The position numbers were made by a program, and so were the translations under genes. Below are positions 10,681-60,882 of a stretch of 64,000 bases of DNA, piece after piece. Numbering within the stretch: the first letter of the stretch is position 1; the number at the start of each line of letters is the position of its first letter. The DNA is taken from the NCBI GenBank assembly GCA_001821055.1, contig MHRT01000006.1:8572-72571 (forward strand), written 5' to 3'. The stretch is from Candidatus Taylorbacteria bacterium RIFCSPHIGHO2_12_FULL_45_16 (GTDB taxonomy: Bacteria; Patescibacteriota; Minisyncoccia; Phycocordibacterales; PALSA-1337). The notes below the pieces were generated by a model, which was not told the DNA's origin, searched no databases, and was given only the letters and a program-made list of their open reading frames with translations.

Positions 10681-10697
10681 TTATGAGTAAGAAACTC

Positions 10698-11564: not shown

Positions 11565-11600
11565 GGGAGTGAATGAGAGGAATGAAAAGAATAAGAAGAA

Positions 11601-11990
11601 TTAAGAATTAGGAACAAGTGTCTTTGATTTTCTAATTAAACCAATCAGCAACTGGTGGGCTATCACAATCTGTCGAGCGATTTCGTTGAATAGTTTTCTG
11701 TCGGTATATCCAATATCCTTGCAAACAAGCAATTGATTTTCAAGCTCAATCAAGGATCCTTGAGCCTGATAATAAAACTGGACTTTTTCTTTATAACTTT
11801 TTCTGCCAAATCCTTCCGCAATATTTGATGTTACTGATACGGCCGCGCGCTGCATCTGACTGGTCAATCCAAATAATTCAGACTTTGGAAAATTCTTTGT
11901 CATTTTATAAATAGCAACGACAAATTTGTGGGCTTCCTGCCAAGCCTTTATATCCGTAAATCTCGTAATTTTCTGTGTTGTGTTGTTCAT
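11601..11990 (-). CDS. Four-helix-bundle protein (23S rRNA intervening-sequence protein family, TIGR02436)
   Basis: IKAWQEAHKFVVAIYKMTKNFPKSELFGLTSQMQRAAVSVTSNIAEGFGR matches the family signature closely. Confidence 0.75.
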   Translation of the reverse strand: MNNTTQKITRFTDIKAWQEAHKFVVAIYKMTKNFPKSELFGLTSQMQRAAVSVTSNIAEGFGRKSYKEKVQFYYQAQGSLIELENQLLVCKDIGYTDRKLFNEIARQIVIAHQLLIGLIRKSKTLVPNS

Positions 11991-12057
11991 AATTCTTCTG
12001 ATTCACAATTCTTTTCATTCTTTTTTATTCCTCTCATTCTTTTCTTATTCCTCTTAT

Positions 12058-12924
12058 TCACCTCTTCAAAATCCCCTGTGGCCGCCACAGCAAGAAAATG
12101 ATCAGCACCCCGAACGCTATGGCATCCTTCCATTCTCCGGAGATCTTCCAGATACCGAAGTTCTCGACGAAACCGAGGAAGAATGCCCCGAGGACGCCTC
12201 CGTAGATGTTCCCGATGCCGCCGATGATGGAAGCGATCACGCCTTTCAATAGGAGCGACATGCCCATGGTCGGCTCGATGCCGGTGTCGAAGCCGATCAG
12301 GATGCCGGCCAGACCGGCGATGGCTGAGCCGATGAAGAAGATCCAACCGATAATCTTCGGCGTATTGATCCCAACAATCTTGGAGACTTCTTCGTCATCG
12401 CCCACGGCTTTGACGGCTTTGCCGAAGATGGTGAACTTGAGGATGAGAGCCATGCCTGCCATGATGACCAGGCCGCAGATGAGGATGATGAGCTGAACTT
12501 CGGTGATGACTCCGCCGAGGATATCATAGACCTTTCCCGCTCCGGCGCTCTGGGTCAGGGTCTGGAATTGGCTGGTGAAGAGGATGGCTATGAGCGCCTG
12601 AACCGCCGTGAATGCGCCCAAGGATCCGACCAGGAGCACCATGCCCGAAGATTTGCGGGCGCGCAATGGCGAGTAGACGAATTTGTAGAGCAAAAAGCCG
12701 ATAATGCCGGCGATGAGGATGCCGAGCAGAATGGAAATGTAGAGGTTGAGGCTGAGAGTCTTGTAGAAATAAAAGACGGCATATCCTCCGACGGCCGTCA
12801 GCGCCCCGTAGCCCAGGTCGAAGAATTTGACCGTGCCGTAAATGAGGTTGAACCCCAGCGCGACCATGGTATAGATCGCTCCGGCGATGATGCTGTTGAC
12901 TATCAGTTGAGGGATGATGTCCAT
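12058..12924 (-). CDS. livH: Branched-chain amino acid ABC transporter permease (LivH-like)
   Basis: Probable start MDIIPQLIVNSIIAG; LivH-type TM topology and motifs (GINTPKIIGWIFFIGSAIAGLAG). Confidence 0.8.
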   Translation of the reverse strand: MDIIPQLIVNSIIAGAIYTMVALGFNLIYGTVKFFDLGYGALTAVGGYAVFYFYKTLSLNLYISILLGILIAGIIGFLLYKFVYSPLRARKSSGMVLLVGSLGAFTAVQALIAILFTSQFQTLTQSAGAGKVYDILGGVITEVQLIILICGLVIMAGMALILKFTIFGKAVKAVGDDEEVSKIVGINTPKIIGWIFFIGSAIAGLAGILIGFDTGIEPTMGMSLLLKGVIASIIGGIGNIYGGVLGAFFLGFVENFGIWKISGEWKDAIAFGVLIIFLLWRPQGILKR

Positions 12925-13050
12925 GGCTGTGGCTCTATACGCCGGATCCGCACTCAATGTTGCGCTATAAATATATACCAAAACCCGCTCTGTGGCGAGC
13001 GGGCTAGTGGAGTTGCGATTGACAAGATAGCTCTACAGCCTTAATAGATT

Positions 13051-14184
13051 CTATTGCACTACTTCAATTTTACCATTCTTGACTATTTTTACTGTATAGT
13101 CGGCTGTCTTAGGATCACCATTGCTGTCAAAACTAATTTCTTTTGAAGAGACACCTCCAGCATAAACAGTCTTATAGAGTTCATCCTTGATCGCCGTTGG
13201 TTCTACGCCAGCATTTTTTAATACTTGAGCTAAAATATGAACTCCATCGTAAGCGGTCGGGGTACATACTGCTATTTCATCCGTACCAACCTTAGTCTTC
13301 ATTGCTGTCTTGAAAATTTCACTTGGGCTTGAAGAAGGAACAGTAAAATATATACCTTCAGCTGCACTACCGGCATCAGTGATGATTTGCTGATCATCCC
13401 ATGCGTCTCCTCCAAACATCGAAACTTTGTATTTCAAGTCTGCAAGCTGCTTTAGAGCAGGAACAGTTTGTCCAGCATATCCTAGGAAATAGATGACATC
13501 TGGATTGGCCACCTTAATCTTAGAAAGCTGCGACCTAAAATCTTTATTCGTCTCCTGAAATCCTTCAGACGCCACAACAGTCCCGCCCAGTTCAACAAAT
13601 TTCTTTGAGAAAGTTTCGTTCAGGCCAATACCCCAATCTGTTTGAATATATAGAATAGCAACTTTTGATTTGTTGAGTTTGTTCTTAATATAATCAGCAG
13701 CGAACACCCCCTGGAAATTATCAGATGGATAATTTCTAAAGATATAGTCCCCCGCATTGGTGATTGCCGCAGCCGAAGAACAGTACGACAATACGACGGT
13801 CTTACTCTGTTCAGCCAAGCCGGTAAAAGCTGAAGTCTCCCCAGAACATGCTCCACCGAACACAACTGGAACTTTGTCTACATTTATGAGTTTTTGCGCA
13901 GCCGCTGCCGCATCTTTACTCGTACACTTTCCATCTTCATAAATAATCTCGAGCGGTCTACCATTTATTCCCCCGTCTGCATTAACTTCACTGAGAGCAA
14001 TCTCTATTGCTGCCTTGGCATTCTGACCAACATTGGCCGCATTACCCGTGAGCGGCCCGATGAACCCAATCTTGATCGGCTCACTCGACGTCGGTGCACC
14101 TCCCTTCTTCGTGGCCGCTGAAATTCCCCAGATGATGAGAATGATGACGATCAAACCGACTATAATTTTTGCTGTTTTGGACAT
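13051..14184 (-). CDS. ABC transporter substrate-binding protein, LivK-like, TM-anchored (first gene of the locus)
   Basis: MSKTAKIIVGLIVIILIIWGI anchor; KIGFIGPLTGNAANVG PBP type I signature. Confidence 0.8.
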   Translation of the reverse strand: MSKTAKIIVGLIVIILIIWGISAATKKGGAPTSSEPIKIGFIGPLTGNAANVGQNAKAAIEIALSEVNADGGINGRPLEIIYEDGKCTSKDAAAAAQKLINVDKVPVVFGGACSGETSAFTGLAEQSKTVVLSYCSSAAAITNAGDYIFRNYPSDNFQGVFAADYIKNKLNKSKVAILYIQTDWGIGLNETFSKKFVELGGTVVASEGFQETNKDFRSQLSKIKVANPDVIYFLGYAGQTVPALKQLADLKYKVSMFGGDAWDDQQIITDAGSAAEGIYFTVPSSSPSEIFKTAMKTKVGTDEIAVCTPTAYDGVHILAQVLKNAGVEPTAIKDELYKTVYAGGVSSKEISFDSNGDPKTADYTVKIVKNGKIEVVQ

Positions 14185-14317
14185 GATGATAAATAGTTAT
14201 GTGAATAAAATTTAATAAAATGAGCGCTTTGCCCCTAGGCGAGACATTACTACGCATAGAATAACATACCGGATATGGTATGCAAACTCTGTCTTATTTT
14301 CACTTTCTGCGAAATTG

Positions 14318-41448: not shown

Positions 41449-41513
41449 AGCACGAGTAACTGAAGACTTGATCGTAGTGACTTTTGAAAACAAAAACCTT
41501 GCCCGAAGTCATC

Positions 41514-42683
41514 ATGCTTTGGGTATCAACAGAAAAGACAAGACATATGAAGAAAACAACACCTGCAGGATTCACCACTGCACAGCTTGCCGCAGCACGA
41601 AAAAGCGGAGGGACTATCAAGCTTGGTGGTCCGGCTCCCGCCAAATCGGCAACAAAACCCGCTCCCACGACAACCAAACCCGTCGCGACCACCGTCAAGG
41701 TGAGCACTCCGGCAAAGACGGCAACATCCGGTGCCCCGACAAAGGCAAAGATGGCACGCATCCGCAAGAAGGTGACGACTGGCACTTCTGCTTCTGGTCG
41801 AACGCCGGCGGCAATCCCGCCGATTATTCCGCCGCCAGTGATTCCACCGCCCATTCCAGTTTCGACACCATCGAAAGTTTCGTGGTGGAAAAAATTGATT
41901 CGGGCAAACACAGCAACGGCTACGGCACCGGTCCGTCACCACAATTGGTTCGGATGGTTGTTCTTGATCATCGTGATCTTGGCAATCATCATTGGGCTGA
42001 TGTGGAAGAACAGCTGGCTCTTCTTCTCGGAGAAACCAGCAGTTCAGATCGTTCGCGGGGTACTCGCGCCTCAAGTCGAAGTTTCGAATGCCCTGATTCC
42101 ACTGCCAGCGAGCACAAATCAGACACTGGCGACCGTTACACCGACAAACCCACCGGTACCTGTATTGGCAGTGACTCCGACATCCGGAGTCTCAAACAAC
42201 ACGGTTCCGCATAATCAACAGTGGCCTTCAAAAGTCACTGGCATCGAAGGCGACAACAACGACGGAAACACCGTCGTAAACAACTTCGGTACCATAAACT
42301 ACACTACGGATGGTAGCAAAGGTGTAATGATCACGGTCAAGACGAACCTACCGGGGGAGGTAAATGTACCGTTCAGGTTGCCACCTGGATGTACATCTGT
42401 CCGTGAAATCCGAGTCCACCCTTCATCGTGGAACAGTTCCGATGTTCCGCCAGTCAACGTGGAGATGAAGCCCGGCGAATACGTCAGGGTCATTCCCCCA
42501 CCAACCTGGCTGATGGACGGCCCTTACGTGGCCGACGGTCCCATCATGGTTACTCACGACGGGGTCACTTGGGACCACCGGAATTCCGCCAGGATTACAG
42601 TCAAGGAGTGGGGTTACTACATGTTGCCAGGTACAACGGCATGCAATGTGGTGATCAACTTCAAGAACCCAAAGCACCAGTAA
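41514..42683 (+). CDS. Hypothetical single-pass membrane protein with Pro/Thr-rich basic N-terminal region and ~220-aa extracytoplasmic domain
   Basis: Central TM WFGWLFLIIVILAIIIGLMW; PPIIPPPVIPPPIP repeats; tracked start 41484 is TTG, first ATG 41514 (alt 41548). Confidence 0.5.
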   Translation: MLWVSTEKTRHMKKTTPAGFTTAQLAAARKSGGTIKLGGPAPAKSATKPAPTTTKPVATTVKVSTPAKTATSGAPTKAKMARIRKKVTTGTSASGRTPAAIPPIIPPPVIPPPIPVSTPSKVSWWKKLIRANTATATAPVRHHNWFGWLFLIIVILAIIIGLMWKNSWLFFSEKPAVQIVRGVLAPQVEVSNALIPLPASTNQTLATVTPTNPPVPVLAVTPTSGVSNNTVPHNQQWPSKVTGIEGDNNDGNTVVNNFGTINYTTDGSKGVMITVKTNLPGEVNVPFRLPPGCTSVREIRVHPSSWNSSDVPPVNVEMKPGEYVRVIPPPTWLMDGPYVADGPIMVTHDGVTWDHRNSARITVKEWGYYMLPGTTACNVVINFKNPKHQ

Positions 42684-42701
42684 ATTCGAGTCCGATTCAC
42701 A

Positions 42702-42739
42702 GCGCGCGGAATGGAAACATTCCGCGCGTCTCCTTTTAT
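42702..42739 (+). terminator. Rho-independent terminator
   Basis: gcgcgcggaatg-gaaa-cattccgcgcg + tctccttttat. Confidence 0.65.
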
Positions 42740-42819
42740 ACGTATAGAAAGTGCTTCAAAATAGAAACAAAATCTATTTATTTCTGTATATAAAACCTAA
42801 TTTAATCTAGGTTTTGAGC

Positions 42820-42849
42820 TTGACATTATGGCATATATCATGATACAAT
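42820..42849 (+). promoter_or_regulatory. Sigma70-type promoter TTGACA-N18-TACAAT
   Basis: Near-consensus boxes ~100 nt upstream of ATG 42952, which has a GGTGAG SD. Confidence 0.5.
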
Positions 42850-42951
42850 TGTCACAAAACCAATGGTACCTGTGCGGTATCAAAGAAACTTGAAAACCAA
42901 CTTCAAACCAATGGCTTTCTACGCACGAGAGAGTCTAGATGGTGAGAAACT

Positions 42952-43926
42952 ATGAACACCAATGACACAGAACAGGTAAAAAAACCTGTACCCTATTACC
43001 GAACGATGGATAGAAAGATATTTGTATGGGTCGGCAATGCAACCTTACTTGCATCTTTCGTCATCCTGACGGCAATGGGCCTCGAGTACATAACGCCGTT
43101 TGCCTTCGGGGCATGCGTGCTAGCTATGTGCTACTTCGTGACCATCATCTTGTTCTTCCTCGGAGGATACAAGAAATTCCTCGCTCCTGTGGCTGATCTG
43201 CATGCCGGCGTACTGATCAATCGGTTCTTTGGCCGCAAGGCACCCAAAACCGATACGGAAAGTTTGAGTCTCAAACCAGCCGCCTTTCTGGAGGAAGTAA
43301 GTTCTGGAATCTGGAACTCAAAATTCCCCTGGCAATCGGTTACATATGTCAACCTTCAGCGACATGTTGCCGTTGGAGGAAAACCTGGGGAATCTTACTC
43401 CTATGATCAGATTGCGCACACTTTCCTCTGGTTCGGCACCGTGAGAGCGGTGCAAGGATACTGCTGTACCTTGGTCAGGATTGGGGCACAAGCCGCAATA
43501 AATTCGATTGAAGGCCTGACTGATGCCGCCGTTTCCGTGGATATCAACAAGAGGAAATGGAAAGAAATAATTAGGGAACAAGCTCATCTCGCAAAAAACC
43601 TCGAAGAGCACTATGGTGGCGACGGGAACATGAGTGATAAGGAAGCCGGATTTGGCTTGGCCATAGAGCGTCTTGTTCTTCGAAAAGTAACTCGTAGCAA
43701 GGAGCTCCAGGATTCCGCCGAACTCGTCGAGCGCAATAGAAATCTGAGAGAAGCTGTCAGGATACTTAAAGGAAGCAAGTTGGCGGAAGGAACACATCTC
43801 ACGGACAAAGAAGCAACCGACCGTGTGCTCATGGAAGCCGGTAAGGGCGACTTGAGGGTGTTCGAAGGCCTTGAAGGCATGGGAAGAAATGTGCTCCTTA
43901 ACGTTGACAGGGGCGGAAACAAGTAA
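42952..43926 (+). CDS. Hypothetical membrane protein (two N-terminal TM helices, cytoplasmic alpha-helical domain)
   Basis: ATG with SD; TM helices VWVGNATLLASFVILTAMGL / AFGACVLAMCYFVTIILFFLGG; no family recognised. Confidence 0.5.
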   Translation: MNTNDTEQVKKPVPYYRTMDRKIFVWVGNATLLASFVILTAMGLEYITPFAFGACVLAMCYFVTIILFFLGGYKKFLAPVADLHAGVLINRFFGRKAPKTDTESLSLKPAAFLEEVSSGIWNSKFPWQSVTYVNLQRHVAVGGKPGESYSYDQIAHTFLWFGTVRAVQGYCCTLVRIGAQAAINSIEGLTDAAVSVDINKRKWKEIIREQAHLAKNLEEHYGGDGNMSDKEAGFGLAIERLVLRKVTRSKELQDSAELVERNRNLREAVRILKGSKLAEGTHLTDKEATDRVLMEAGKGDLRVFEGLEGMGRNVLLNVDRGGNK

Positions 43927-43941
43927 CCGAATGGAGTCATT

Positions 43942-44457
43942 ATGGCAAATGAGAGTAATGAGAATTCCTTGATCGTCGGACCGGAACAAGGTTCGATAAA
44001 TCTTGAGGGCGACCCAAAAGCGAAGTGGTATGCTCGTGCAATCACGGGCGGGCCACAACAATTCGGCCTGATCGTCCTATTCATGCTCACCTTGATCACG
44101 GTCTGGTACTTTCGGACATACGGTCTAAGCGGGCTAGTAACCGAAGGATCACGAAGATGGAATTGGGGTGACGCCCTCCAACCGTCGCGATCAACTACTC
44201 AACCATCCATCACCATCACAAAAGATGTCTGGAGTACGGAAGTACATCCCGGGAATAGAAAATTCTGGGTGTTATCGATCACGCCACCAGCCAGACGTCT
44301 AGTAATGGTCAATAACAACCCCGACTTGATCTATCCATTGCCAGCAGGGCCAGCTAACGAGGTGGTCGTCGGCCACGACGTCGAATCGTTGAAATGGATG
44401 ATCGTGCCGGACGAAACCGTCCAGTATTCAACCATCACATACGAATACAGACGTTGA
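43942..44457 (+). CDS. Hypothetical single-TM protein (171 aa)
   Basis: GGAG SD then ATG; TM FGLIVLFMLTLITVWYF; ends at bidirectional terminator. Confidence 0.45.
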   Translation: MANESNENSLIVGPEQGSINLEGDPKAKWYARAITGGPQQFGLIVLFMLTLITVWYFRTYGLSGLVTEGSRRWNWGDALQPSRSTTQPSITITKDVWSTEVHPGNRKFWVLSITPPARRLVMVNNNPDLIYPLPAGPANEVVVGHDVESLKWMIVPDETVQYSTITYEYRR

Positions 44458-44475
44458 GACAGTTCTTTGCAAAAC

Positions 44476-44508
44476 GGCCTAGGAGCAATCCTAGGCCGTC
44501 CTTTTTTT
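44476..44508. terminator. Bidirectional rho-independent terminator
   Basis: ggcctagg-agcaat-cctaggcc flanked by aaaa and ctttttttat; separates + strand island genes from - strand pilin-like array. Confidence 0.7.
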
Positions 44509-44525: not shown

Positions 44526-44819
44526 TTATATTCCCTTCACCGTATTCGAGATTATTTGGATAATCCCCCAAGCCGATAACATAATAAACATCCCGATGAC
44601 TCCTCCCCACATGCTCCTCTTGCCTTTTTCATGAGTCTCACCTCCGGGTTCTCCCCAAACAACTTGAAAAACCCCGTAAGCAAAGACTACAACCGCCGCG
44701 GCAAACAGAAGAACAATAATCGGATCAATTATGTGAGTGAAAATCGGGTTGACTACCCTGCCAAAAGCATCCGCATTCACTTCGGCGTATGCGTTCTCAA
44801 CAAAAGGTAAAAAACTCAT
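44526..44819 (-). CDS. TrbC/VirB2-like two-TM pilin-family small protein, paralog 1
   Basis: 98 aa from ATG right after upstream stop; two hydrophobic helices IIVLLFAAAVVVFAYGVFQVV / MWGGVIGMFIMLSAWGIIQII separated by short polar loop. Confidence 0.45.
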   Translation of the reverse strand: MSFLPFVENAYAEVNADAFGRVVNPIFTHIIDPIIVLLFAAAVVVFAYGVFQVVWGEPGGETHEKGKRSMWGGVIGMFIMLSAWGIIQIISNTVKGI

Positions 44820-44824
44820 GAAGA

Positions 44825-45181
44825 TTAAGGGATCTGGCGAGGATACTGAACCTGTGGAAATTGGTTGACTGGAGCGTTGGTATCGGTGCGGAAAGTATTG
44901 GTCAAGATGCGGACAAGTCCCCAAATAGAGAGGATGACGAAGAGGCCAACTATGCCCCAGAGGATGGATTGACCGATAGGTCCGCGAGCTTCTTTGTCGC
45001 CGGCCATAATGTAACGAATGACATTGAAAATGATGAAAATAACCGCGAAGGCTATGAGGATTTCTATTACGACATTGCCAATATTGGTGAGTTTGTAAGT
45101 CAGAGAATTGACATCAGTGATCGCTTGAGCAGAAACGACGGTCGGAATAGAGACTGCGAGAACTGCTAGTATTTTCTTCAT
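44825..45181 (-). CDS. TrbC/VirB2-like two-TM pilin-family small protein, paralog 2
   Basis: Signal peptide MKKILAVLAVSIPTVVSAQA, then helices VIEILIAFAVIFIIFNVIRYI / ILWGIVGLFVILSIWGLVRIL. Confidence 0.55.
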   Translation of the reverse strand: MKKILAVLAVSIPTVVSAQAITDVNSLTYKLTNIGNVVIEILIAFAVIFIIFNVIRYIMAGDKEARGPIGQSILWGIVGLFVILSIWGLVRILTNTFRTDTNAPVNQFPQVQYPRQIP

Positions 45182-45316
45182 GATAATATTGTTATGTTTA
45201 TTAGTGTTGTTAATTATACATTACATATCAGACAATACAATCTAACTACTGTGGATTACAAAACTGTTGGAAGTTAATATGAAATCTATTTTTGTTCAAG
45301 TAGACGAGACTTTGCG

Positions 45317-45844
45317 TCAAAAGCTTGGATCTCGTGATGAGTTAGGGTTCGCATTATTTGGTGTAGTGACAGAAGATGGATTACCTGACACACCAGGAGC
45401 AACTCCTCTAGGAGTACCCGTATTCACGGTCCCGGGAGTAACCGAAGAAGGATTACCGCTTGTATTGCCTCCCGCCGGAAACAATCCCTTGAACGATGTC
45501 CAGGAAGCCGGTTGATTGTTTTCGTTTTTTAACCCAAAGGTATTTTGCAATATATTGACCAATCCCCAAAATGAAAGAATGACGAAGAATCCTATGAGAC
45601 TATACATGACGTACAAGCTGGCGTTTTTTCTGTCTTCATTCGGCTTGATGAAGTACTGGATGATGTACCAGACAAAGATGACCACGGCCAGACCGATCAT
45701 TAAGACCAAGAACTGGTTCAAATAACCAATGATTATATTGATGACGCAAGCCAGATTTTTCTGTGAACAGACTTGTGCCTGAGTTACAAAGGGAAAAATA
45801 ACAAGAATGAAAGCTGAAAGATAGAGTGGAAATTTTTTAAACAT
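45317..45844 (-). CDS. TrbC/VirB2-like two-TM pilin-family protein with Gly/Asn/Pro/Ser/Thr-rich repeat tail, paralog 3
   Basis: Signal peptide, two helices, C-terminal tail with SGNPSSVT duplicated. Confidence 0.55.
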   Translation of the reverse strand: MFKKFPLYLSAFILVIFPFVTQAQVCSQKNLACVINIIIGYLNQFLVLMIGLAVVIFVWYIIQYFIKPNEDRKNASLYVMYSLIGFFVILSFWGLVNILQNTFGLKNENNQPASWTSFKGLFPAGGNTSGNPSSVTPGTVNTGTPRGVAPGVSGNPSSVTTPNNANPNSSRDPSF

Positions 45845-45866
45845 GATAATAATGATTAATAATTAA

Positions 45867-46292
45867 TTATTTGCCGATGGCGCTACGAACACTGTTAATG
45901 GTCTTTGGGTCTACGGTACCCGACAAAGAAAGCGTGTTGATGACGACCTCAATGATCACTCGAGCGCCAATGACCACGGCCACACCGACCACAATCCACC
46001 ACAGCCAATTCTTGAGATCTTTCATTTTCGTCACGTCGCCCCGAGAGACGATATACTGAAAGCCAACCCAGATCAAAGCCAGAACGGCTATAATTATGAC
46101 GACGTAACTGAATATTTCCACGAAACTCTGAACCAAACCGGCAACGGAATCAACTTTTAGCGGGTTGGAAAGAGTAAATGTTTTCGTTGAGTCTGAGGTT
46201 GATTGGGCAAAAACAAATACCGGCAAAAACAAAAGGGTGGTTAGGCCAAAAAAATATTTTAGTTTATAGGATGTGGTTTTAATCATGAACAC
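45867..46292 (-). CDS. TrbC/VirB2-like two-TM pilin-family small protein, paralog 4
   Basis: Signal peptide ...LPVFVFAQS, helices VVIIIAVLALIWVGFQYIV / WLWWIVVGVAVVIGARVII. Confidence 0.55.
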   Translation of the reverse strand: MFMIKTTSYKLKYFFGLTTLLFLPVFVFAQSTSDSTKTFTLSNPLKVDSVAGLVQSFVEIFSYVVIIIAVLALIWVGFQYIVSRGDVTKMKDLKNWLWWIVVGVAVVIGARVIIEVVINTLSLSGTVDPKTINSVRSAIGK

Positions 46293-46293
46293 T

Positions 46294-46902
46294 TTAAGGG
46301 CTTCCCAACAGAGTCTTGAAACCGCTATTATCAGTCAGCCAACTCAAGATCTGATAAACAATGAACCAGGCCGATAGCATTATTATAAACCCTAAGAAGA
46401 TTTTGGGGAAGATACTATGAGCTTTGTCGATTTTGGCTTTTTGGCCAGAAATATAAAGTAAACCAGCATAAGATAACATCAGTATGGCAACCAAAACGCC
46501 CAGAACCATCATTATATTGATCAGATGCTGAACTAGAAGAATAACGGCGTCGAAATCACAAGGCACGTAATCACGATTGTTGTTTGCGGCTTTGAATTCC
46601 GCCATCGTCTTTATACTGAATTGAGTATAAGCTCCGGTGACATCTTTTGGCAGACTCGGCCCATCACAGACCGCTATTCTGAAGGCAGAACTGTTGGGAT
46701 TGGTGGAGGGTTCCAGCTGGGATTGCAGGGTGCGAGCCGGAACGGTAGTCGGAGGTGGTGGTGGCTGATTGCCGACAGATTGAGCTTTTACAATACTGTC
46801 TGACCAGACATTTGAAGTCAAAACCACCACGACAATCAAACAAATACTAGCACAGACTTTGGTATTTTTTGAAAATATTTTATTTTGATTACATTTGTTC
46901 AT
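46294..46902 (-). CDS. TrbC/VirB2-like two-TM pilin-family protein with Pro-rich, Cys-containing N-terminal region, paralog 5
   Basis: Signal peptide, PPPPPTT stretch, CDGPS...PCDFD, then helices IMMVLGVLVAILMLSYAGLLYI / IFLGFIIMLSAWFIVYQIL. Confidence 0.5.
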   Translation of the reverse strand: MNKCNQNKIFSKNTKVCASICLIVVVVLTSNVWSDSIVKAQSVGNQPPPPPTTVPARTLQSQLEPSTNPNSSAFRIAVCDGPSLPKDVTGAYTQFSIKTMAEFKAANNNRDYVPCDFDAVILLVQHLINIMMVLGVLVAILMLSYAGLLYISGQKAKIDKAHSIFPKIFLGFIIMLSAWFIVYQILSWLTDNSGFKTLLGSP

Positions 46903-46928
46903 ATTTTACCGTTCACAATTCACTTCTA

Positions 46929-48227
46929 CTACTGTAAAGCTTCTCTCAACAATATATCATACTGCTCCCCCGCGCTCTGGATGGCTTGATACGACGACTT
47001 GGACCCACTAGTGATGTCTTGAATCATCGTACCAAAGAGATCCCGAGACTTTTGCGGATCAGCATCCAGCCAGGTCTTGGAAATCAGGGCTGTTTCATTG
47101 AATACGGAAATGTATGGATCGCTGGAACCTTGGGCAATAACATCGCGACGGACCGTCGGCAAATACAACGTAAGATTTAGTTCGGAAATATTGGCCGGAT
47201 CGGTCAAGATGGAGATAACTTGGAAGACCGCGTCGGCATAAGGCGAAGTACGAACAATGGAAAAACCATTCATTTTGGCGTAAGTGGCTTTGGTTCCACC
47301 GGATCGCAACTGCGGCAAAGGCGCAACATCAAAATTGATGTTAGCATTCTTGGCGCGAATATCCTTGAGCTCGGAAGAAAAACCAAAATAGGTCGCCAGA
47401 CTTCCGGACAAAAAGGCGGATTTTGAAGCCGGCATTCCCCTGTTCCATGAATAGTTGGGGCTGGCGGGATCAACAAATTTGATGAAAAAGGTAACGGCCG
47501 GCGTTGGATCTGGTGAAAATGACGGCTTCAGAGTGCTTTGAATAAAACCATCATTGTCCGTCCTGGTTATAGGATTCCCAGCCTGCATAATCAATGAGGC
47601 AAGAATCTCGCGCGCATTGCCAACGTTGGTGAAATCGCCAAGCGCGATGGCAGACTTGCGAATATTACCGTTCTGGTCTTTGGAGGTTAGTTTGGCATTG
47701 AGTGAAGTGAATTCATCCCAGAATTTCGGATACGTAGCCAAGCCGGCAGCATTGAAGATGTCACGATTCCAGTACATAACAAGCGGATCAACCGTAAATG
47801 GGATGGCGATTAGACCGTTGGAATTTAGATAGATTACACCCTCTTCAATAAAATTGTCCATGAATGTCCTCTGCGACAAGGCACTAAATGGTATGGCCAC
47901 GAGCTTGTCGTAGTGCGGCAAGAGCATGTCAGCTGGTATCAATATACCATCGGGCCCGGTACCCCGCGCCAGCGCGGCGATAAATTCTTGTGAGAATGTG
48001 GCGGAGTTTTTTTGGACATAATTGACCACAATCGGTTGTGACAAATTTGTATTTACTTTGGCAACATAGGAGTTGAACGTATCCGCCGAAAATGTCCCCC
48101 AAAAAGTCACCGGCGGTATAGTAGTACTCGAACTACTTCCTTTATAAAGAGCAAACGCAGCTACTCCGCCGACAAGAAAAATAAGAAAGATGGCGATCGT
48201 GATGATTTGAAATTTAGTTATTTTCAT
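46929..48227 (-). CDS. ABC transporter substrate-binding protein, family 1 (sugar-type), TM-anchored, orphan
   Basis: N-terminal TM, VTFWGTF family-1 start motif, ~430 aa; no cognate permease/ATPase nearby. Confidence 0.7.
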   Translation of the reverse strand: MKITKFQIITIAIFLIFLVGGVAAFALYKGSSSSTTIPPVTFWGTFSADTFNSYVAKVNTNLSQPIVVNYVQKNSATFSQEFIAALARGTGPDGILIPADMLLPHYDKLVAIPFSALSQRTFMDNFIEEGVIYLNSNGLIAIPFTVDPLVMYWNRDIFNAAGLATYPKFWDEFTSLNAKLTSKDQNGNIRKSAIALGDFTNVGNAREILASLIMQAGNPITRTDNDGFIQSTLKPSFSPDPTPAVTFFIKFVDPASPNYSWNRGMPASKSAFLSGSLATYFGFSSELKDIRAKNANINFDVAPLPQLRSGGTKATYAKMNGFSIVRTSPYADAVFQVISILTDPANISELNLTLYLPTVRRDVIAQGSSDPYISVFNETALISKTWLDADPQKSRDLFGTMIQDITSGSKSSYQAIQSAGEQYDILLREALQ

Positions 48228-48237
48228 AAGTGTATAA

Positions 48238-48753
48238 TTAACGCCTAAAAATCAACCCATAATGATGATCGCCGGCGTTAAATGAATTCTCCAGTTTGAA
48301 ACCGTTTTTTTCAAAAAGCATTTGTGCTTTCATGGCCGGCACGATGACTTTTGGACTCAAGGGAGTGATACCGCTCCAATCAATCACCAGAACTTTACCC
48401 TCGAGTCTGAGAATGCGCTTAATTTCAAGACAAAAATCGTCCGGCTTCTCTACCTGAAACAATACATTGGAGGCAACCACGCAATCTGCGATACCTTCGC
48501 GAAGCTTTGTGCCGCCGATCTTTTCGACATTCCCCCAGACGACCTCAATATTGTGCACACCCTGCGCAGTAGCCATAGAACGTAGTCGCTCCAGAAGATT
48601 TTTTTGAACATCAACAGCATATACCCTGCCGCTCGAACCGACTTTCTTGGCGGCTTCAAGGCTATAAAAACCGGAACCAGCCCCCAAGTCAACAACTTTC
48701 TGGCCTTCAGTAAGACCTAATTTAGCAAGATTTGAGACAGGGTCTGAAAACAT
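48238..48753 (-). CDS. Class I SAM-dependent methyltransferase
   Basis: Motif I VVDLGAGSGFYS, motif post-I AVDV, small Rossmann MTase size. Confidence 0.75.
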   Translation of the reverse strand: MFSDPVSNLAKLGLTEGQKVVDLGAGSGFYSLEAAKKVGSSGRVYAVDVQKNLLERLRSMATAQGVHNIEVVWGNVEKIGGTKLREGIADCVVASNVLFQVEKPDDFCLEIKRILRLEGKVLVIDWSGITPLSPKVIVPAMKAQMLFEKNGFKLENSFNAGDHHYGLIFRR

Positions 48754-48849
48754 AGGTTAATTATAGCGCATTTGCCAACAAGCATAAAAGAGTCTGGGGA
48801 CAAGAGAAATTTGGCAGTTTGTCACACTCTATGAGGTACGGATCAATTG

Positions 48850-48936
48850 CGGAGGGTAAGGGATTCGAACCCTTGATGAGGTTTCCCCCATACCACCTTT
48901 CCAAGGTGGCGCACTCGACCACTATGCGAACCCTCC
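48850..48936 (-). tRNA. tRNA-Ser (anticodon GGA)
   Basis: Reverse strand GGAGGGU acceptor, long variable arm, anticodon loop UUGGAAA, T-arm AGGG-UUCGAAU-CCCU. Confidence 0.8.
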
Positions 48937-53859: not shown

Positions 53860-55608
53860 GTGACTAACCTACCCCAACAAGAACTCCGTCTCAAACACGG
53901 AATCACCATATTAAATTATCTACGACGCTTCTCGGCAACCGAGAAAGTCATATTCGGCGCGTTTGTCATAGTGGCATGCGTAACCACTATTGTTATGCTC
54001 GCCCGATTGAATGAGCAGTTCACTATTGAAATCCCAGCCTATGGCGGTATACTCCACGAAGGAATCATCGGTCTGCCACGCAGTGTCAATCCCGTGCTGG
54101 CTTTAAGCGATGTTGACCGCGATATCGGAGCGCTCGTGTACGCGGGATTGACAAAATACGACGACGGAAAAATCGTAACCGATCTGGCCCAATCATACTC
54201 CATATCAAAAGATGGCCTGACATATACATTCAAACTCAAACCAAATCTAAGATTTCAAGACGGTAACACGCTTACCACGGAAGACATAGCATTCACCATA
54301 CAAAAAATCCAAGATCCGGCCATAAAAAGCCCGCGGCGCGTTGATTGGACAGATGTGACAGTCAAAGTTATCTCCCCGATTGAGATAAGTTTCATCCTCA
54401 AGCAGGCATACAGTCCATTTTTGACCAACACGACTATCGGTATAATTCCAAAACATGTCTGGAGTTCCGTCAGTGACGACCAATTCATTTTCAGCCAATA
54501 CAATATAGAGCCGATCGGATCAGGACCATATCGTTTTTCATCAATCGCTCGCGACAACGACGGCATACCGACACACTACACACTCGTGTCATCAAGTGAA
54601 TATTATGACAAGAGACCTTATATACCAACCATTGTTTTTATTTTCTTTCCAGACGAAGAGGGCGCTCTGGTCGCACTTGACCAAGGTTCAATAGACAGTA
54701 TAAGCGGCCTGTCTCCACGGGCCGGACAAATGATTGCCTCAGATCTGGCCCAAGCCTACACTGTGCTTGATACCTCATTGCCTCGCATATTCAGTGTTTT
54801 TCTAAACCAAGATCAAGCCCCGATATTCGGTGACAAAATCGTTCGCCAGGCACTCAATATGTCAATTGATCGAGACAAACTCGTCAATATCGTATTAAAG
54901 GGCTACGGAACTCCGCTTCAAGGCCCTGTCCCCTTTGTCTCTTCATCAATAACTTCAATCCAAACTCTTGGCAGTACGACGCCGATCGAAGCGGCCCGAA
55001 TGCTTCTGGAGAAAAATGGCTGGAAGAATGTCGGTGGTGTATATAGCAAAAAAAACACCAAAACCGGCACTACCACATTGGCTTTTGATATATACACGGT
55101 AGATTCTCCTGATCTCAAAGAAACAGCGGAACTTGTCAAAAATACTTGGGTGGAACTCGGAGCGAATGTCACGGTTAAAGTCTATGAGGGCACTGATTTT
55201 TATCAAAATATCATCCGCACCCGCAAATACGACGCACTTTTGTTTGGGGAGGCTATCGGCAAAGATCGTGATCTTTACGCGTTTTGGCATTCATCACAAC
55301 GCAAGTCGCCAGGATTGAATGTGGCAATGTACGCCAATGGAAAAGTCGACACGTTACTTGACAGCATACGCACGACTAGCGACGACGAAACAAAAGATGC
55401 CAAATACATCCAATTCGATCAGCTGATTCGTTCCGACATTCCGGCTATCTTTCTGTATACTCCGGATTTCATTTATGCCGTGTCGAAATCGCTCAAAAAC
55501 ATCAACATTGATTCAATGACGGTTCCGGCCGATCGATGGAGCGAGATAACACGCTGGTATATAGAGACTGAAAAAGTATGGGACATAAAACTATTTACTA
55601 AAAAATAA
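53860..55608 (+). CDS. ABC transporter substrate-binding protein, family 5 (peptide/nickel-type), TM-anchored, orphan
   Basis: N-terminal TM, ~580 aa, family-5 SBP pattern (GGILHEGIIG...LTKYDDGKIVTDLAQS); no adjacent permeases. Confidence 0.75.
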   Translation: MTNLPQQELRLKHGITILNYLRRFSATEKVIFGAFVIVACVTTIVMLARLNEQFTIEIPAYGGILHEGIIGLPRSVNPVLALSDVDRDIGALVYAGLTKYDDGKIVTDLAQSYSISKDGLTYTFKLKPNLRFQDGNTLTTEDIAFTIQKIQDPAIKSPRRVDWTDVTVKVISPIEISFILKQAYSPFLTNTTIGIIPKHVWSSVSDDQFIFSQYNIEPIGSGPYRFSSIARDNDGIPTHYTLVSSSEYYDKRPYIPTIVFIFFPDEEGALVALDQGSIDSISGLSPRAGQMIASDLAQAYTVLDTSLPRIFSVFLNQDQAPIFGDKIVRQALNMSIDRDKLVNIVLKGYGTPLQGPVPFVSSSITSIQTLGSTTPIEAARMLLEKNGWKNVGGVYSKKNTKTGTTTLAFDIYTVDSPDLKETAELVKNTWVELGANVTVKVYEGTDFYQNIIRTRKYDALLFGEAIGKDRDLYAFWHSSQRKSPGLNVAMYANGKVDTLLDSIRTTSDDETKDAKYIQFDQLIRSDIPAIFLYTPDFIYAVSKSLKNINIDSMTVPADRWSEITRWYIETEKVWDIKLFTKK

Positions 55609-59958: not shown

Positions 59959-60882
59959 TTACTTCTCTATGGCCAGATTATGCTTGGCGGCTCCTTCAGC
60001 ATATATTTGTTCGATTTCAGAAGTGGCAAGATTTCGATTATAGACCATGACATCGTCGATGAGACCATGGAACAGGTCATTTCCAGCATTACTCGATGAA
60101 CCAATAAATATCCCCCTCGGACTAATTGCTGGACTAAAACCATCACATCCAGACAGGGGTCCAAGCACCTTTCCATTAAGATACACTGTGCCAGCGTTTC
60201 CATTTATTGATACTGTAACATTGTACCACTTATTGATGACAACTGCATTCGAGAAAGTATAACTACATGAACCTGAATCAGAAGCTGAGTCAACATACAG
60301 CCCCCCATTTCGTAAGTCGATATAAAGATTACGATTACTTAACGCTGTAACGGCACTGCTTGACACTGCAAGTACGGCATCATAATTACTAATTGTTGTC
60401 GGTTTGATCCAGACACTGGCTGTTATGCTCGTCAAGGAAGTAGAAGTAAGCGGACTAAGTGGTGCAGCACGACCATAAGAAGCATACTGCAACGCAGTGC
60501 CATCTAAAACAAGTGAATTTCCCGAGCCTGAAGGCGAATCTGCCGGTGTTGGACGACAATAGGAAGGATTGACGCATCCGCTTCCCAATGTGGCGGTAAA
60601 ACCATTACCCGAGGTATCCAGAGCCGTCGTGCCGGGCGCTTCATTAAAATTATACGCCACAATGGCATCGGCTCCCAAAAGACGATGGTTATAGGTGGCA
60701 AACTTGATGCCGGCCCCGACAATCCCCTTCTGGCGCGCGCTTTGGAGAGAAGCAAATACCACGCTTGACAACATGCCGATGATGGAAATAACCACGAGAA
60801 GCTCTATCAAAGTAAAGGCGCGAGTATGGCCACGCGCGCCAAGTGTCTGGAGTGATACAGGCGAAAAGGAAGAAATCTTCAT
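59959..60882 (-). CDS. Type IV pilin-like protein (prepilin N-terminal methylation motif) with LamG/concanavalin-like domain
   Basis: FTLIELLVVISIIGML class-III signal helix; LamG-like body (LVLDGTALQYASY...LYIDLRNGGLYVD...LFHGLIDDVMVYNRNLATSEI). Confidence 0.65.
   Translation of the reverse strand: MKISSFSPVSLQTLGARGHTRAFTLIELLVVISIIGMLSSVVFASLQSARQKGIVGAGIKFATYNHRLLGADAIVAYNFNEAPGTTALDTSGNGFTATLGSGCVNPSYCRPTPADSPSGSGNSLVLDGTALQYASYGRAAPLSPLTSTSLTSITASVWIKPTTISNYDAVLAVSSSAVTALSNRNLYIDLRNGGLYVDSASDSGSCSYTFSNAVVINKWYNVTVSINGNAGTVYLNGKVLGPLSGCDGFSPAISPRGIFIGSSSNAGNDLFHGLIDDVMVYNRNLATSEIEQIYAEGAAKHNLAIEK

What the first reader, a model, noticed from the sequence alone, without database searches (positions are those of the whole stretch)
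44526..48753. Tandem array of five TrbC/VirB2-like two-helix pilin paralogs downstream of a methyltransferase and an orphan sugar-binding protein
All five consecutive minus-strand genes (98-202 aa) share one architecture: cleavable signal peptide, then two ~21-aa hydrophobic helices separated by a short polar loop, the fold of conjugative/T4SS pilins.

The paralogs differ in their decorated N- or C-terminal tails (Pro-rich, Cys pair, SGNPSSVT repeats).

No VirB4/VirB6/VirD4-like ATPase or channel gene is nearby, so these do not belong to a recognisable T4SS. They may form an uncharacterised surface filament or membrane scaffold.

The array appears co-transcribed after SBP 46929-48227 and ends at a strong bidirectional terminator.
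Basis: partly seen in the sequence, partly recalled or inferred. Interest (0 to 1): 0.72.

Follow-up and report, generated by a model that had tools for sequence, protein, structure and literature searches.

The report
Sugar-binder-linked pilin array of Patescibacteria
Five small secretion-pilus-like (VirB2-type) membrane proteins sit in a row in an ultrasmall groundwater bacterium (Candidatus Taylorbacteria); such arrays are already known in this group, but here the array always travels with a sugar-binding protein that in some relatives is fused to the first pilin, which hints at what these unexplained pili do.

Summary
Window 44526-46902 (-) carries five consecutive two-helix proteins, and all five hit Pfam T4SS_pilin. 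Three pass the curated cut-off, and p4 also passes TrbC/VirB2.

The window is chromosomal DNA of Ca. Taylorbacteria RIFCSPHIGHO2_02_FULL_45_28. It holds no VirB4, VirB6 or VirD4 gene. However, a 2025 survey lists this assembly as VirB4-positive and already describes 441 VirB2-like arrays in Patescibacteria. The array itself is therefore a member of a known kind, not an orphan filament.

Several points appear to be new:
- The methyltransferase and the "orphan" binding protein (SBP) belong to the unit. The order MT-SBP-p5-p4-p3-(p2a)-p2-p1 is kept in all 32 related genomes retrieved, and in relatives whose SBP is only 35-40% identical to the fusion-protein query.
- Each position is a separate orthogroup: orthologues are 40-80% identical in loci with SBP at 51-80% (29-42% in the most distant locus), paralogues 21-34%.
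- In-frame SBP::p5 fusions occur in at least three divergent lineages.
- A conserved promoter-like element precedes p2-p1.

Best reading: a heteromeric T4SS pilus or conduit module whose p5 subunit tethers an oligosaccharide-binding domain. The T4SS dependence, the ligand and the methyltransferase's role are all inferred.

The parts
48238..48753 (-). Class-I SAM-dependent methyltransferase, 171 aa, with no TM segment. It is the first gene of the conserved cassette.
   Evidence: Pfam Methyltransf_31/11/25 with E down to 7.5e-18. The closest PDB entries are only uncharacterised structural-genomics methyltransferases, 3dh0 and 3i9f. It lies directly upstream of the SBP in all 30 of the 32 genome-collection loci that have upstream sequence, and in L036-L042, L045 and L046, in at least three different upstream contexts (gyrA, TPM/LemA, T4CP). 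A TATAAT lies 7 nt before its ATG.
46929..48227 (-). Solute-binding protein (SBP_bac_1/8), 432 aa, with an N-terminal hydrophobic anchor or signal (residues 1-31). It has an oligosaccharide-binding-protein fold and no ABC permease or ATPase partner nearby.
   Evidence: Pfam E = 1.4e-16. Best PDB match by sequence is 4r9f, MnBP1, E = 7.6e-15. In the AF2 model of the fusion homologue the SBP part has pLDDT above 90. Foldseek best hits are 4r9g, CpMnBP1 with mannotriose (E = 4.8e-22), followed by MalE proteins. There are 816 homologues at E <= 1e-5 and 958 50%-identity clusters at E <= 1e-30. No ABC_tran or BPD_transp family appears among the 25 families listed per side for ORFs within 7 kb of the cassette in the related loci.
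46294..46902 (-). p5, a VirB2-like pilin of 202 aa. It consists of a signal peptide, a Pro-rich linker, a conserved two-cysteine loop (CDGP...PCDF), a two-helix hairpin and a conserved C-terminal GFKTLLGxP motif. It is the subunit that carries or tethers extracellular modules.
   Evidence: PF18895 at 23.6 bits, below the cut-off. hhalign to p4 gives 96.6% and to p1 96.4%. Orthologue alignment. In-frame SBP::p5 fusions are P0242, P0243, P0361 and P0366. A 419-aa orthologue in L042 has an extra N-terminal domain.
45867..46292 (-). p4, a TrbC/VirB2-family pilin of 139-141 aa. It has a signal peptide, a variable linker, a conserved TFTLxNPLK motif and a two-helix hairpin.
   Evidence: PF04956 TrbC 43.1 bits (cut-off 27.9) and PF18895 31.1 bits. 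The AF2 model shows a hairpin, H48-80 and H85-121, with pLDDT of about 95. All 120 listed homologues that carry a source name are from Patescibacteria, and some are named 'TrbC/VirB2 family protein' or 'pilin'.
45317..45844 (-). p3, a VirB2-like pilin of 175 aa. It has a signal peptide, a cysteine pair, a hairpin and a long Gly/Ser/Pro/Thr/Asn-rich C-terminal tail with two SGNPSSVT motifs.
   Evidence: PF18895 at 29.3 bits. Sequence. Tail length varies among orthologues.
45213..45255 (-). Conserved intergenic element in front of p2: a TCCACA box, a 31-nt spacer and a TATAAT -10-like hexamer. It is a putative internal promoter for p2-p1.
   Evidence: This is the only match to TCCACA-N(24-40)-TAHAAT in the 64-kb window; the chance expectation is 0.52, so it is not significant taken alone. 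The significance comes from position: the same element sits just upstream of the last p2 gene in at least 18 other related loci. The gap there is 71-135 nt, against 0-40 nt between the other cassette genes.
44825..45181 (-). p2, a VirB2-like pilin of 118 aa and the best-conserved paralogue. It has a signal peptide ending in SAQA, a hairpin and a Pro/Gln-rich tail. It is a candidate major subunit.
   Evidence: PF18895 at 35.4 bits. Orthologues are 42-80% identical, with 29-42% in the most distant locus, L035. It is duplicated (p2a/p2b) in 7 of the 32 loci, with near-identical loop and TM2, which suggests gene conversion.
44526..44819 (-). p1, a VirB2-like pilin of 97 aa and the smallest paralogue. 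It has only a 12-aa leader (MSFLPFVENAYA) before the mature part and carries no decorations.
   Evidence: PF18895 at 20.6 bits, below the cut-off. hhalign to p2 gives 99.2%. Most orthologues have a 5-14-aa leader ending in AxA and none has a long one; no leader is called in L012 and L013, and L035 lacks the AxA motif. Public gene calls give 97 aa.
44471..44502 (.). Intrinsic-terminator hairpin shared by the array and the convergent plus-strand gene 43942-44457.
   Evidence: Terminator scan. RNA folds give a minus-strand 14-bp stem at -24.2 kcal/mol with z = -5.06, followed by UUUUG, and a plus-strand 11-bp stem at -22 kcal/mol with z = -4.17, followed by U7.

Best explanation
The five genes encode ancient, non-redundant VirB2/TrbC-type pilin-like proteins. 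They form the pilin array of the Patescibacteria-type type IV secretion system (T4SS), whose VirB4 ATPase is encoded elsewhere in this roughly 0.65-Mb genome.

They are the distal part of a deeply conserved cassette: methyltransferase, SBP, p5, p4, p3, (p2a), p2, p1.

**Shown**
- Family membership of the pilins.
- Fixed gene order and positional orthology across relatives.
- Recurrent in-frame SBP::p5 fusions.
- A conserved promoter-like element in front of p2-p1.
- An oligosaccharide-binding-protein fold for the SBP.

**Inferred mechanism**
- After membrane insertion as helical hairpins with both termini outside the cell, the subunits are assembled by the distant T4SS core. The product is a heteromeric pilus or envelope-spanning conduit.
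- The small undecorated p2 and p1, expressed from their own promoter, are the bulk subunits.
- p5, p4 and p3 are minor, decorated subunits.
- p5 holds the sugar-binding domain at the structure by non-covalent docking here and by covalent fusion in some relatives. The domain would either recognise a host surface glycan or capture host-derived oligosaccharide at the contact site.
- The cytoplasmic methyltransferase acts on a component or substrate of the system. Its target is unknown.
For: **Family and architecture.** Pfam T4SS_pilin hits all five proteins and TrbC hits p4. hhalign links all five orthogroups. The AF2 model shows a helical hairpin.

**Organism and published precedent.**
- The window is Ca. 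Taylorbacteria GCA_001822595.1.
- PMC12102498 reports 441 arrays of 2-11 VirB2-like pilins in Patescibacteria with mean paralogue identity of 25%. Pilins lie near virB4 in only 1135 of 1948 assemblies. Its Table S1 lists this assembly as VirB4-positive.
- A six-pilin array inside the T4SS cluster of Southlakia epibionticum is essential (PMC10633639; PMC12857230).

**Cassette conservation.**
- All 32 loci retrieved with the SBP (37-80% identity) are consistent with the same order. 24 have the full array; the other 8 are cut by contig ends.
- The same order is seen for SBP relatives that are 40% and 35% identical to the fusion query P0242, and for the p4 relatives examined.

**Positional orthology.** Orthologues are 40-80% identical in loci with SBP at 51-80%, tracking the SBP's own divergence (29-42% in the most distant locus, L035). 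Paralogues within the window are 21-34% identical.

**Fusions.**
- P0242 is found in two independent assemblies and P0243 in a third. P0361 is 54% and P0366 38% identical to P0242.
- The AF2 model of P0242 shows an SBP domain (pLDDT above 90), a disordered linker at 437-482, and then the hairpin.
- This topology is consistent, because the mature pilin N-terminus and the SBP are both extracellular.
- p5 also carries another extracellular domain in L042.

**Other points.** The internal promoter-like element is. The SBP fold is closest to manno- and malto-oligosaccharide binding proteins. A VirD4-type coupling protein lies directly upstream of the cassette in one relative, L008.
Against: - No T4SS core gene lies within the 64-kb window or within 7-10 kb of the cassette in any relative, apart from the T4CP in L008.
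- I did not see this genome's virB4 myself. Its presence rests on a published table.
- Genome-wide co-occurrence of the cassette with VirB4 was not tested.
- No pilus has been observed in any Patescibacterium.
- The downstream neighbourhood (convergent trio, NusB, rnc, smc) is also fairly syntenic. Part of the order conservation could therefore reflect general synteny rather than function.
- In the fusion proteins the SBP keeps its own N-terminal hydrophobic segment. If that segment is an uncleaved anchor, p5 would be pinned in the membrane at both ends and could not leave it for a filament.
- The assignment of major and minor subunits rests only on the promoter-like element and on protein size.
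- The fold search of the pilin model was uninformative.
Confidence: 0.7

Rival explanations
1. The cassette is a T4SS-independent membrane machine. The SBP and the five two-helix proteins (10 TM helices in total) would form a new binding-protein-dependent uptake system or membrane scaffold. The VirB2-like fold would be re-used as a channel or permease building block, not as a pilus.
For: - The cassette is self-contained and never adjacent to T4SS core genes in the roughly 40 loci seen.
- It always contains an SBP, the hallmark of import systems.
- Five individually conserved subunits in fixed order look like a fixed-stoichiometry complex.
- The SBP::p5 fusion keeps the SBP's own N-terminal hydrophobic segment, which fits a membrane-resident complex.
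- No ABC partner is nearby.
Against: - p4 passes the curated TrbC/VirB2 threshold, and all five belong to the T4SS_pilin family.
- Homologous arrays sit inside the T4SS cluster in Saccharibacteria (PMC10633639).
- This assembly has VirB4.
- No energising component such as an ATPase or ion-coupled permease is in the cassette.
- Two-helix subunits with long, decorated extracellular tails are atypical for permeases.
Confidence: 0.15
2. The paralogues are interchangeable alternative major pilins kept for antigenic or host-range variation. This is the role proposed for VirB2 paralogues in Bartonella and Anaplasma and suggested for Patescibacteria in PMC12102498.
For: - Paralogue identity is low, 21-34%, similar to the 25% average reported for Patescibacteria arrays.
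- The extracellular tails and linkers are variable.
- p2 is duplicated in 7 of the 32 loci, with signs of gene conversion.
Against: - Each array position is a distinct orthogroup conserved at 40-80% identity across species in loci with SBP at 51-80%, diverging no faster than the neighbouring SBP.
- The order is invariant.
- Each paralogue has its own conserved signature motifs: the p5 Cys loop, p4 TFTLxNPLK, the p1 short leader and p2 AITDVNSLTYKLTN.
- This pattern points to specialisation under purifying selection, not diversification.
Confidence: 0.07
3. The array is a remnant or cargo of a conjugative element, a standard conjugation locus broken up by rearrangement.
For: TrbC/VirB2 homology. 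Weak sub-threshold NCBIfam hits to pilin-like conjugal transfer proteins of Mycoplasma ICEs and of pLS20.
Against: - The context is chromosomal and housekeeping: GroEL, ClpB, SMC, TopA, RNase III and gyrA in relatives.
- GC content is uniform.
- No relaxase, integrase or T4SS core gene is present in the window.
- The cassette stays in the same chromosomal neighbourhood across deep divergence.
Confidence: 0.02

Closest known systems
VirB2-like pilin arrays of the Patescibacteria T4SS (Southlakia epibionticum ML1 SEML1_0006-0019; Nanosynbacter lyticus TM7x 'Sec-secreted array'; 441 arrays surveyed in PMC12102498)
   Same: Same phylum and the same Pfam families (PF18895, PF04956). Both have tandem arrays of 2-11 sequence-divergent but structurally similar two-helix pilins, with low paralogue identity. 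Location away from virB4 is common.
   Different: In S. epibionticum the array lies inside the T4SS cluster, whereas here it is remote. The fixed linkage to a methyltransferase and an SBP, the SBP::pilin fusions, the positional orthology of five paralogues and the internal promoter-like element are not mentioned in the papers I could search.
Conjugative and T4SS pilins TrbC (RP4), VirB2 (Ti plasmid) and TraA (F)
   Same: The architecture is a leader peptide plus two hydrophobic helices joined by a short charged loop. p4 scores above the Pfam TrbC gathering threshold.
   Different: Those are single-copy major pilins of diderm systems, encoded next to virB3/virB4, and some are cyclised or acetylated. 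Here there are five paralogues in a monoderm, with no adjacent T4SS genes, long decorated tails and one subunit tied to an SBP. Pilus formation is unproven.
VirB2 paralogue arrays of Bartonella and Anaplasma phagocytophilum
   Same: Tandem amplification of virB2-like genes (cited in PMC12102498).
   Different: Those are thought to serve antigenic or host-surface variation. Here each paralogue is an old, individually conserved orthogroup.
Pilin-like small membrane proteins of monoderm conjugation systems (NCBIfam NF045849, Mbov_0395 family of Mycoplasma ICEs; NF045890, pLS20_p028)
   Same: p1-p4 give their only NCBIfam pilin-type hits to these families. This fits the monoderm (MPF-FATA) ancestry proposed for the Patescibacteria T4SS.
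   Different: All scores are far below the curated cut-offs: 19-27 bits against 40, and 25 against 150. Those proteins are single genes within conjugation clusters.
PrgZ/TraC pheromone-binding proteins of enterococcal conjugative plasmids (from my own knowledge, not tested here)
   Same: A solute-binding protein is encoded with a Gram-positive-type T4SS and has no transporter genes of its own next to it.
   Different: PrgZ is an OppA-like (SBP_bac_5) peptide binder that feeds the chromosomal Opp permease for signalling. The protein here is a MalE/MnBP-like SBP_bac_1/8 protein coupled, and sometimes fused, to a pilin.
Oligosaccharide-binding proteins of ABC importers (CpMnBP1 4r9f/4r9g; MalE)
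   Same: Same fold and family.
   Different: Sequence identity is only 15-21%. No permease or ATPase genes are nearby in any relative. Genetic and physical coupling to VirB2-like pilins is not a feature of known ABC systems.

Membership tests
Pfam PF18895 T4SS_pilin | HMM score at or above the gathering threshold of 26.6 bits | tested here: met
   p2 scores 35.4, p3 29.3 and p4 31.1 bits, all above the threshold. p1 (20.6) and p5 (23.6) fall below it. hhalign joins p1 and p5 to the others at 94-99% for p1 and 68-97% for p5.
Pfam PF04956 TrbC/VirB2 pilin | HMM score at or above the gathering threshold of 27.9 bits | tested here: inconclusive
   Met for p4 only (43.1 bits, E = 5.1e-11). p1 scores 12.3 bits, and p2, p3 and p5 give no reported hit. 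Homology of the others to p4 is supported by hhalign.
VirB2/TrbC-type pilin (architecture) | A cleavable leader followed by two hydrophobic helices joined by a short polar loop | tested here: met
   Hydropathy shows a leader plus two TM helices in p2-p5. The AF2 hairpin in p4 has pLDDT of about 95. p1 departs from this with only a 12-aa leader, a trait conserved in its orthologues. Cleavage itself was not tested.
VirB2/TrbC-type pilin (fold match to solved pilins) | Structural similarity to TraA, VirB2 or TrbC pilin structures | tested here: inconclusive
   Foldseek of the p4 model against the PDB gave no hit with E <= 0.001; the best was E = 1.3, to generic helical hairpins. A profile search of PDB sequences found nothing. 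A two-helix hairpin is too simple for this test.
Type IV secretion system locus | Pilin genes clustered with virB4 and other core genes (virB3, virB6, virB8, virD4) | tested here: not met
   No such gene occurs among the ORFs of 150 aa or more in the 64-kb window, nor within 7-10 kb of the cassette in relatives. The exception is a VirD4-like T4CP next to the cassette in L008.
Type IV secretion system (genome level) | VirB4 encoded in the same genome | not testable with these tools
   Table S1 of PMC12102498 lists GCA_001822595.1 as VirB4-positive. I could not fetch the rest of the genome to see the gene or measure its distance from the array.
Patescibacteria VirB2 array (as defined in PMC12102498) | 2-11 VirB2-like genes in tandem, or separated by one non-pilin gene, in a Patescibacteria genome, with low identity among paralogues | tested here: met
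   Five tandem genes with paralogue identity of 21-34%. The organism is Ca. Taylorbacteria, class Paceibacteria.
Pilus-forming pilin | Polymerises into an extracellular filament | not testable with these tools
   No experimental data exist for any Paceibacteria. The reviews treat a Patescibacteria pilus as a possibility only (PMC12857230).
ABC-importer solute-binding protein (SBP_bac_1/8, oligosaccharide class) | Bilobed SBP fold and family HMM match | tested here: met
   Pfam scores of 61.5 bits for both models. Foldseek to 4r9g gives E = 4.8e-22 and TM-score normalised to the target of 0.73.
ABC-importer solute-binding protein (system context) | Encoded with cognate permease and ATPase genes | tested here: not met
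   No MalF/G-type permease or ATPase lies next to it in the window, and neither family is among the 25 listed per side for ORFs within 7 kb of the cassette in relatives. A distant partner elsewhere in the genome cannot be excluded.

The most novel reading that the evidence does not exclude
The VirB2-like array together with its tethered oligosaccharide-binding protein is an uptake device. This would be a pilus or envelope conduit, T4SS-driven or autonomous, that captures host-derived glycans at its p5-SBP subunit and channels them into a cell that cannot make its own building blocks. It would be the first binding-protein-coupled T4SS-type pilus, and it would explain why Patescibacteria keep pilins in a monoderm-type T4SS.
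Probability: 0.2. Interest if true: 0.85.

Novelty: new variant of a known kind. Interest (0 to 1): 0.55.

Why it matters
**The open question.** The Patescibacteria T4SS is essential in the one species where it has been tested. It lacks relaxases and, unusually for a monoderm system, has pilin arrays. What it transports, and in which direction, is unknown. Reviews speculate about uptake from the host (PMC12857230).

**What this locus adds.** In a large Paceibacteria clade the pilin array is genetically locked to, and sometimes covalently fused with, an oligosaccharide-binding protein. The clade spans 958 SBP clusters at E <= 1e-30. That gives a concrete, testable handle:
- a soluble domain that can be expressed and screened for ligands;
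- a defined subunit (p5) to look for at the cell-host interface;
- five non-redundant subunits that argue for a heteromeric structure rather than antigenic variation.

**If the link proves only syntenic.** The finding then reduces to one more example of a published array type.

Tried and rejected
- **Fold search of the p4 model.** Foldseek against the PDB gave only generic helical hairpins, best E = 1.3. A p4-family profile against PDB sequences found nothing. Neither helps to decide membership.
- **Finding this genome's VirB4.** The genome-collection scan with the SBP did not return GCA_001822595.1 itself. The large ATPase next to the cassette in L008 proved to be a VirD4-type coupling protein, not VirB4. 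In an ENA assembly the T4CP lies on a different contig from the cassette, among housekeeping genes. VirB4 presence therefore rests on the published Table S1.
- **Co-occurrence test from Table S1.** For another cassette-bearing genome, C7867-002, the table says 'No'. That assembly has only 206 annotated CDS, so the entry is uninformative.
- **The roughly 830-aa protein upstream of the methyltransferase.** It is present in about 20 relatives and was suspected to be a T4SS ATPase. It is GyrA.
- **DNA tandem-repeat scan of the array.** Nothing relevant. The SGNPSSVT repeat is a twice-occurring peptide motif, not a DNA repeat array.
- **Methyltransferase function.** Only generic class-I hits (ArsM, UbiE, CbiT-like, all far below cut-offs) and uncharacterised PDB entries. 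No substrate can be inferred.
- **Holin, transporter-subunit or MscL identities for the pilins.** Only weak sub-threshold Pfam hits typical of hydrophobic sequences. Rejected.
- **Literature.** Searches for an SBP-pilin link in Patescibacteria returned nothing. The library is limited to open-access papers.

Full report
**1. What is there**

Window 44526-46902 carries five consecutive minus-strand ORFs. I number them by position from the 3' end:

| Name | Coordinates | Length |
|---|---|---|
| p1 | 44526-44819 | 97 aa |
| p2 | 44825-45181 | 118 aa |
| p3 | 45317-45844 | 175 aa |
| p4 | 45867-46292 | 139-141 aa |
| p5 | 46294-46902 | 202 aa |

- All five hit Pfam PF18895 (T4SS_pilin). p2, p3 and p4 are above the curated threshold. 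p4 also exceeds the TrbC/VirB2 (PF04956) threshold at 43.1 bits.
- p1 and p5 fall just below the threshold. Profile-profile comparison of orthologue alignments ties them to the rest: hhalign gives p1-p2 99.2%, p4-p5 96.6% and p1-p5 96.4%.
- Hydropathy shows a leader plus two long hydrophobic helices in p2-p5.
- An AlphaFold2 model of p4, built from 70 sequences, gives a helical hairpin (residues 48-80 and 85-121) at pLDDT of about 95.
- Upstream lie an SBP_bac_1/8 protein (46929-48227) and a small class-I SAM methyltransferase (48238-48753).
- The array ends at a strong hairpin, 44471-44502, at -24.2 kcal/mol and z = -5.1. It is shared with a convergent gene.

Two corrections apply:
- p1 has no ordinary signal peptide, only a 12-residue leader ending in AYA.
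- A 135-nt gap separates p3 from p2.

**2. Where it comes from and what surrounds it**

[quoted passage not shown] This is class Paceibacteria in the Patescibacteria (CPR), with an assembly of about 0.65 Mb.
- Every ORF of 150 aa or more in the 64-kb window was scanned against Pfam. The window is ordinary chromosome: ClpB, SMC, TopA, GroEL, RNase J, RNase III, SerRS, a Liv-type ABC system and others. It has no VirB4, VirB6, VirD4 or relaxase, and GC content is uniform.

**3. What is already known**

- A 2025 survey of 3,035 Patescibacteria genomes (PMC12102498) found VirB2-like pilins in 1,948 VirB4-containing assemblies. The pilins were near virB4 in only 1,135 of them.
- It also found 441 arrays of 2-11 pilin genes, with mean paralogue identity of 25%.
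- Its Table S1 includes this very assembly and marks it VirB4-positive.
- In Southlakia epibionticum a six-pilin array inside the T4SS cluster is essential for epibiotic growth (PMC10633639; PMC12857230).
- The array as such is therefore a further member of a described class. "No recognisable T4SS" does not follow from the absence of neighbouring core genes.

**4. What the relatives show**

*Gene order.* A scan of one genome per species with the SBP returned 32 loci, with SBP identity of 37-80%. I called ORFs and searched them locally with an HMM of the five pilins and with phmmer.
- Every locus is consistent with the same same-strand order: methyltransferase, SBP, p5, p4, p3, p2, p1. 24 loci carry the full array and 8 are cut by contig ends.
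- A second p2-like gene is present in 7 loci.
- Each position matches best the same-position gene of the window.
- Orthologues are 40-80% identical in loci with SBP at 51-80%, tracking SBP divergence. In the most distant locus, L035 (SBP 38%), they are 29-42% identical. Paralogues within the window are 21-34% identical.
- The same cassette appears around p4 relatives at 46-53% identity and around SBP relatives only 40% and 35% identical to the fusion query P0242.
- The SBP family is large: 958 clusters at 50% identity with E <= 1e-30.

*Upstream context.* It varies, yet the methyltransferase stays with the SBP.
- In most relatives it is gyrA.
- In the window's subclade it is GroEL-LemA-TPM plus a tRNA-Ser.
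- In L008 it is a VirD4-type coupling protein.

*Downstream context.* It is also fairly syntenic: a convergent trio, then NusB-NUDIX, rnc and smc. Order conservation alone is therefore not proof of function.

*ABC partners.* No ABC permease or ATPase family appears among the 25 families listed per side for ORFs within 7 kb of the cassette in these relatives.

**5. Fusion evidence**

- Two of the closest SBP homologues are 594-597 aa long. Their sequences run from the complete SBP, through a Pro/Ala-rich linker, into the mature part of p5 (Cys loop plus hairpin). The p5 signal peptide has been deleted.
- P0242 occurs in an NCBI MAG and independently in a Logan assembly. P0243 occurs in a JGI metagenome. 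In these the cassette reads MT, SBP::p5, p4, p3, p2, p1.
- An exhaustive search with the fusion found two more fusion-length proteins. They are 54% and 38% identical to P0242 and have the same Cys-loop-hairpin C-terminus. One carries precomputed SBP and T4SS_pilin Pfam hits in a single product.
- The AF2 model of P0242 shows a confident SBP domain, a disordered 45-residue linker and the hairpin.
- The topology is coherent, because the SBP and the mature N-terminus of a VirB2-type pilin are both outside the membrane.
- In another relative, L042, p5 carries an extra domain of about 200 residues at the same place.
- p5 thus looks like the subunit that displays extracellular modules, and the SBP is its usual partner.

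**6. Other anatomy**

*Signature motifs.* Each orthogroup has its own:
- p5: SxFKLxVCDGP...PCDF and a C-terminal GFKTLLGxP.
- p4: TFTLxNPLK.
- p2: AITDVNSLTYKLTN and NTFRTDTNAP.
- p1: a 5-14-residue leader ending in AxA in most orthologues.

*Intergenic element.* The gap before the last p2 gene is 71-135 nt in all loci, against 0-40 nt elsewhere. It contains a TCCACA box, often directly after the preceding stop codon, followed 24-40 nt later by a TATAAT-like hexamer.
- The pattern occurs once in the 64-kb window, at 45213-45255.
- It occurs at the equivalent position in at least 18 other related loci.
- I read this as an internal promoter for p2-p1. The function of the TCCACA box is unexplained.

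*SBP domain.* It is closest to manno- and malto-oligosaccharide binding proteins: 4r9f/4r9g and MalE.

*Methyltransferase.* It matches only uncharacterised enzymes.

**7. Interpretation**

*Most likely reading (about 0.7 for the overall picture; lower for details).* The cassette encodes the pilin or conduit module of the Patescibacteria-type T4SS. It consists of five specialised subunits rather than interchangeable variants, and p5 tethers an oligosaccharide-binding domain.

*Shown:*
- family membership of the pilins;
- fixed order of the cassette;
- positional orthology;
- recurrent SBP::p5 fusions;
- the SBP fold.

*Inferred:*
- dependence on the distant VirB4 machinery;
- formation of an extracellular structure;
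- p2 and p1 as bulk subunits;
- whether the SBP serves host recognition or nutrient capture;
- any role for the methyltransferase.

*Main rival (about 0.15).* A T4SS-independent membrane complex or uptake system built from VirB2-like subunits. My data cannot exclude it, because I could not test genome-wide co-occurrence with VirB4.

*Other rivals.* Antigenic variation (about 0.07) is disfavoured by the orthology pattern. A conjugative-element remnant (about 0.02) is disfavoured by the conserved chromosomal context.

**8. Verdict**

- The array is a member of a published class.
- The obligatory, sometimes covalent, coupling to a sugar-binding protein and a methyltransferase appears not to have been described in the literature I could search. 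It makes this a new variant of moderate interest.

Noticed in passing
window 45213-45255 (-), and the equivalent position in L004-L008, L010, L015-L018, L020, L024-L027, L029 and L032: A conserved TCCACA box, often abutting the stop codon of the preceding pilin gene, lies 24-40 nt upstream of a TATAAT-like hexamer in the only long intergenic gap of the cassette. Similar elements sit just upstream of the methyltransferase in L023 and L026. It could be a promoter with an upstream regulator site; the function of the TCCACA box is unexplained.
   Followed up: partly
window 41484-44457 (+): ORFs 41484-42683, 42952-43926 and 43942-44457: A convergent trio of fast-evolving membrane or secreted proteins with no Pfam hits here is positionally conserved downstream of the array in most relatives, at about 130-190 aa, 315-400 aa and 390-715 aa. 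The middle gene hits Band_7/SPFH in L039-L041 and in two other loci. Whether it belongs functionally with the cassette is unknown.
   Followed up: partly
window 48849-48936 (-) and 48754-48770: A tRNA-Ser(GGA) lies between the TPM-domain gene and the methyltransferase, at the point where the window's subclade differs from the ancestral gyrA-MT arrangement. A TATAAT hexamer lies only 7 nt before the methyltransferase ATG, which suggests a leaderless or near-leaderless mRNA.
   Followed up: no
L018 12760-13727, L019 5324-6206, and other six-pilin loci (L015, L017, L020, L027, L029): Where p2 is duplicated, the two copies share an almost identical cytoplasmic loop and second helix but differ in their N-terminal and C-terminal extracellular parts. 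This pattern suggests gene conversion or recent partial duplication.
   Followed up: no
L042 11295-12554 (+): The p5 orthologue is 419 aa long, with an additional N-terminal domain of about 200 residues that looks beta-rich. It sits before the Pro-rich linker and Cys loop, and the p4 orthologue there is 240 aa. The extra domain was not identified.
   Followed up: no
L008 126-2894 (+): A 922-aa VirD4/TraG-type coupling protein (with DUF8128, DUF87 and T4SS-DNA_transf hits in homologues) lies directly upstream of the cassette in one relative. This protein family is very conserved across Patescibacteria, at 60-78% identity among the 120 hits listed.
   Followed up: partly
window 59959-60882 (-): A protein with an N-terminal prepilin methylation motif (N_methyl) and a Laminin_G_3/concanavalin-like lectin domain. 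It is a type IV pilus-type (not T4SS) pilin carrying a putative sugar-binding module.
   Followed up: no
window 1-14200: A Liv-type branched-chain amino-acid ABC system with five Peripla_BP_6 binding-protein paralogues. It is interrupted by an AbiEii toxin gene, a PRiA4_ORF3-like gene and a RhuM-family gene.
   Followed up: no
window 53860-55608 (+): A second binding protein without adjacent transporter genes (SBP_bac_5, oligopeptide type) lies next to RNase J. Locally orphan binding proteins seem common in this genome.
   Followed up: no
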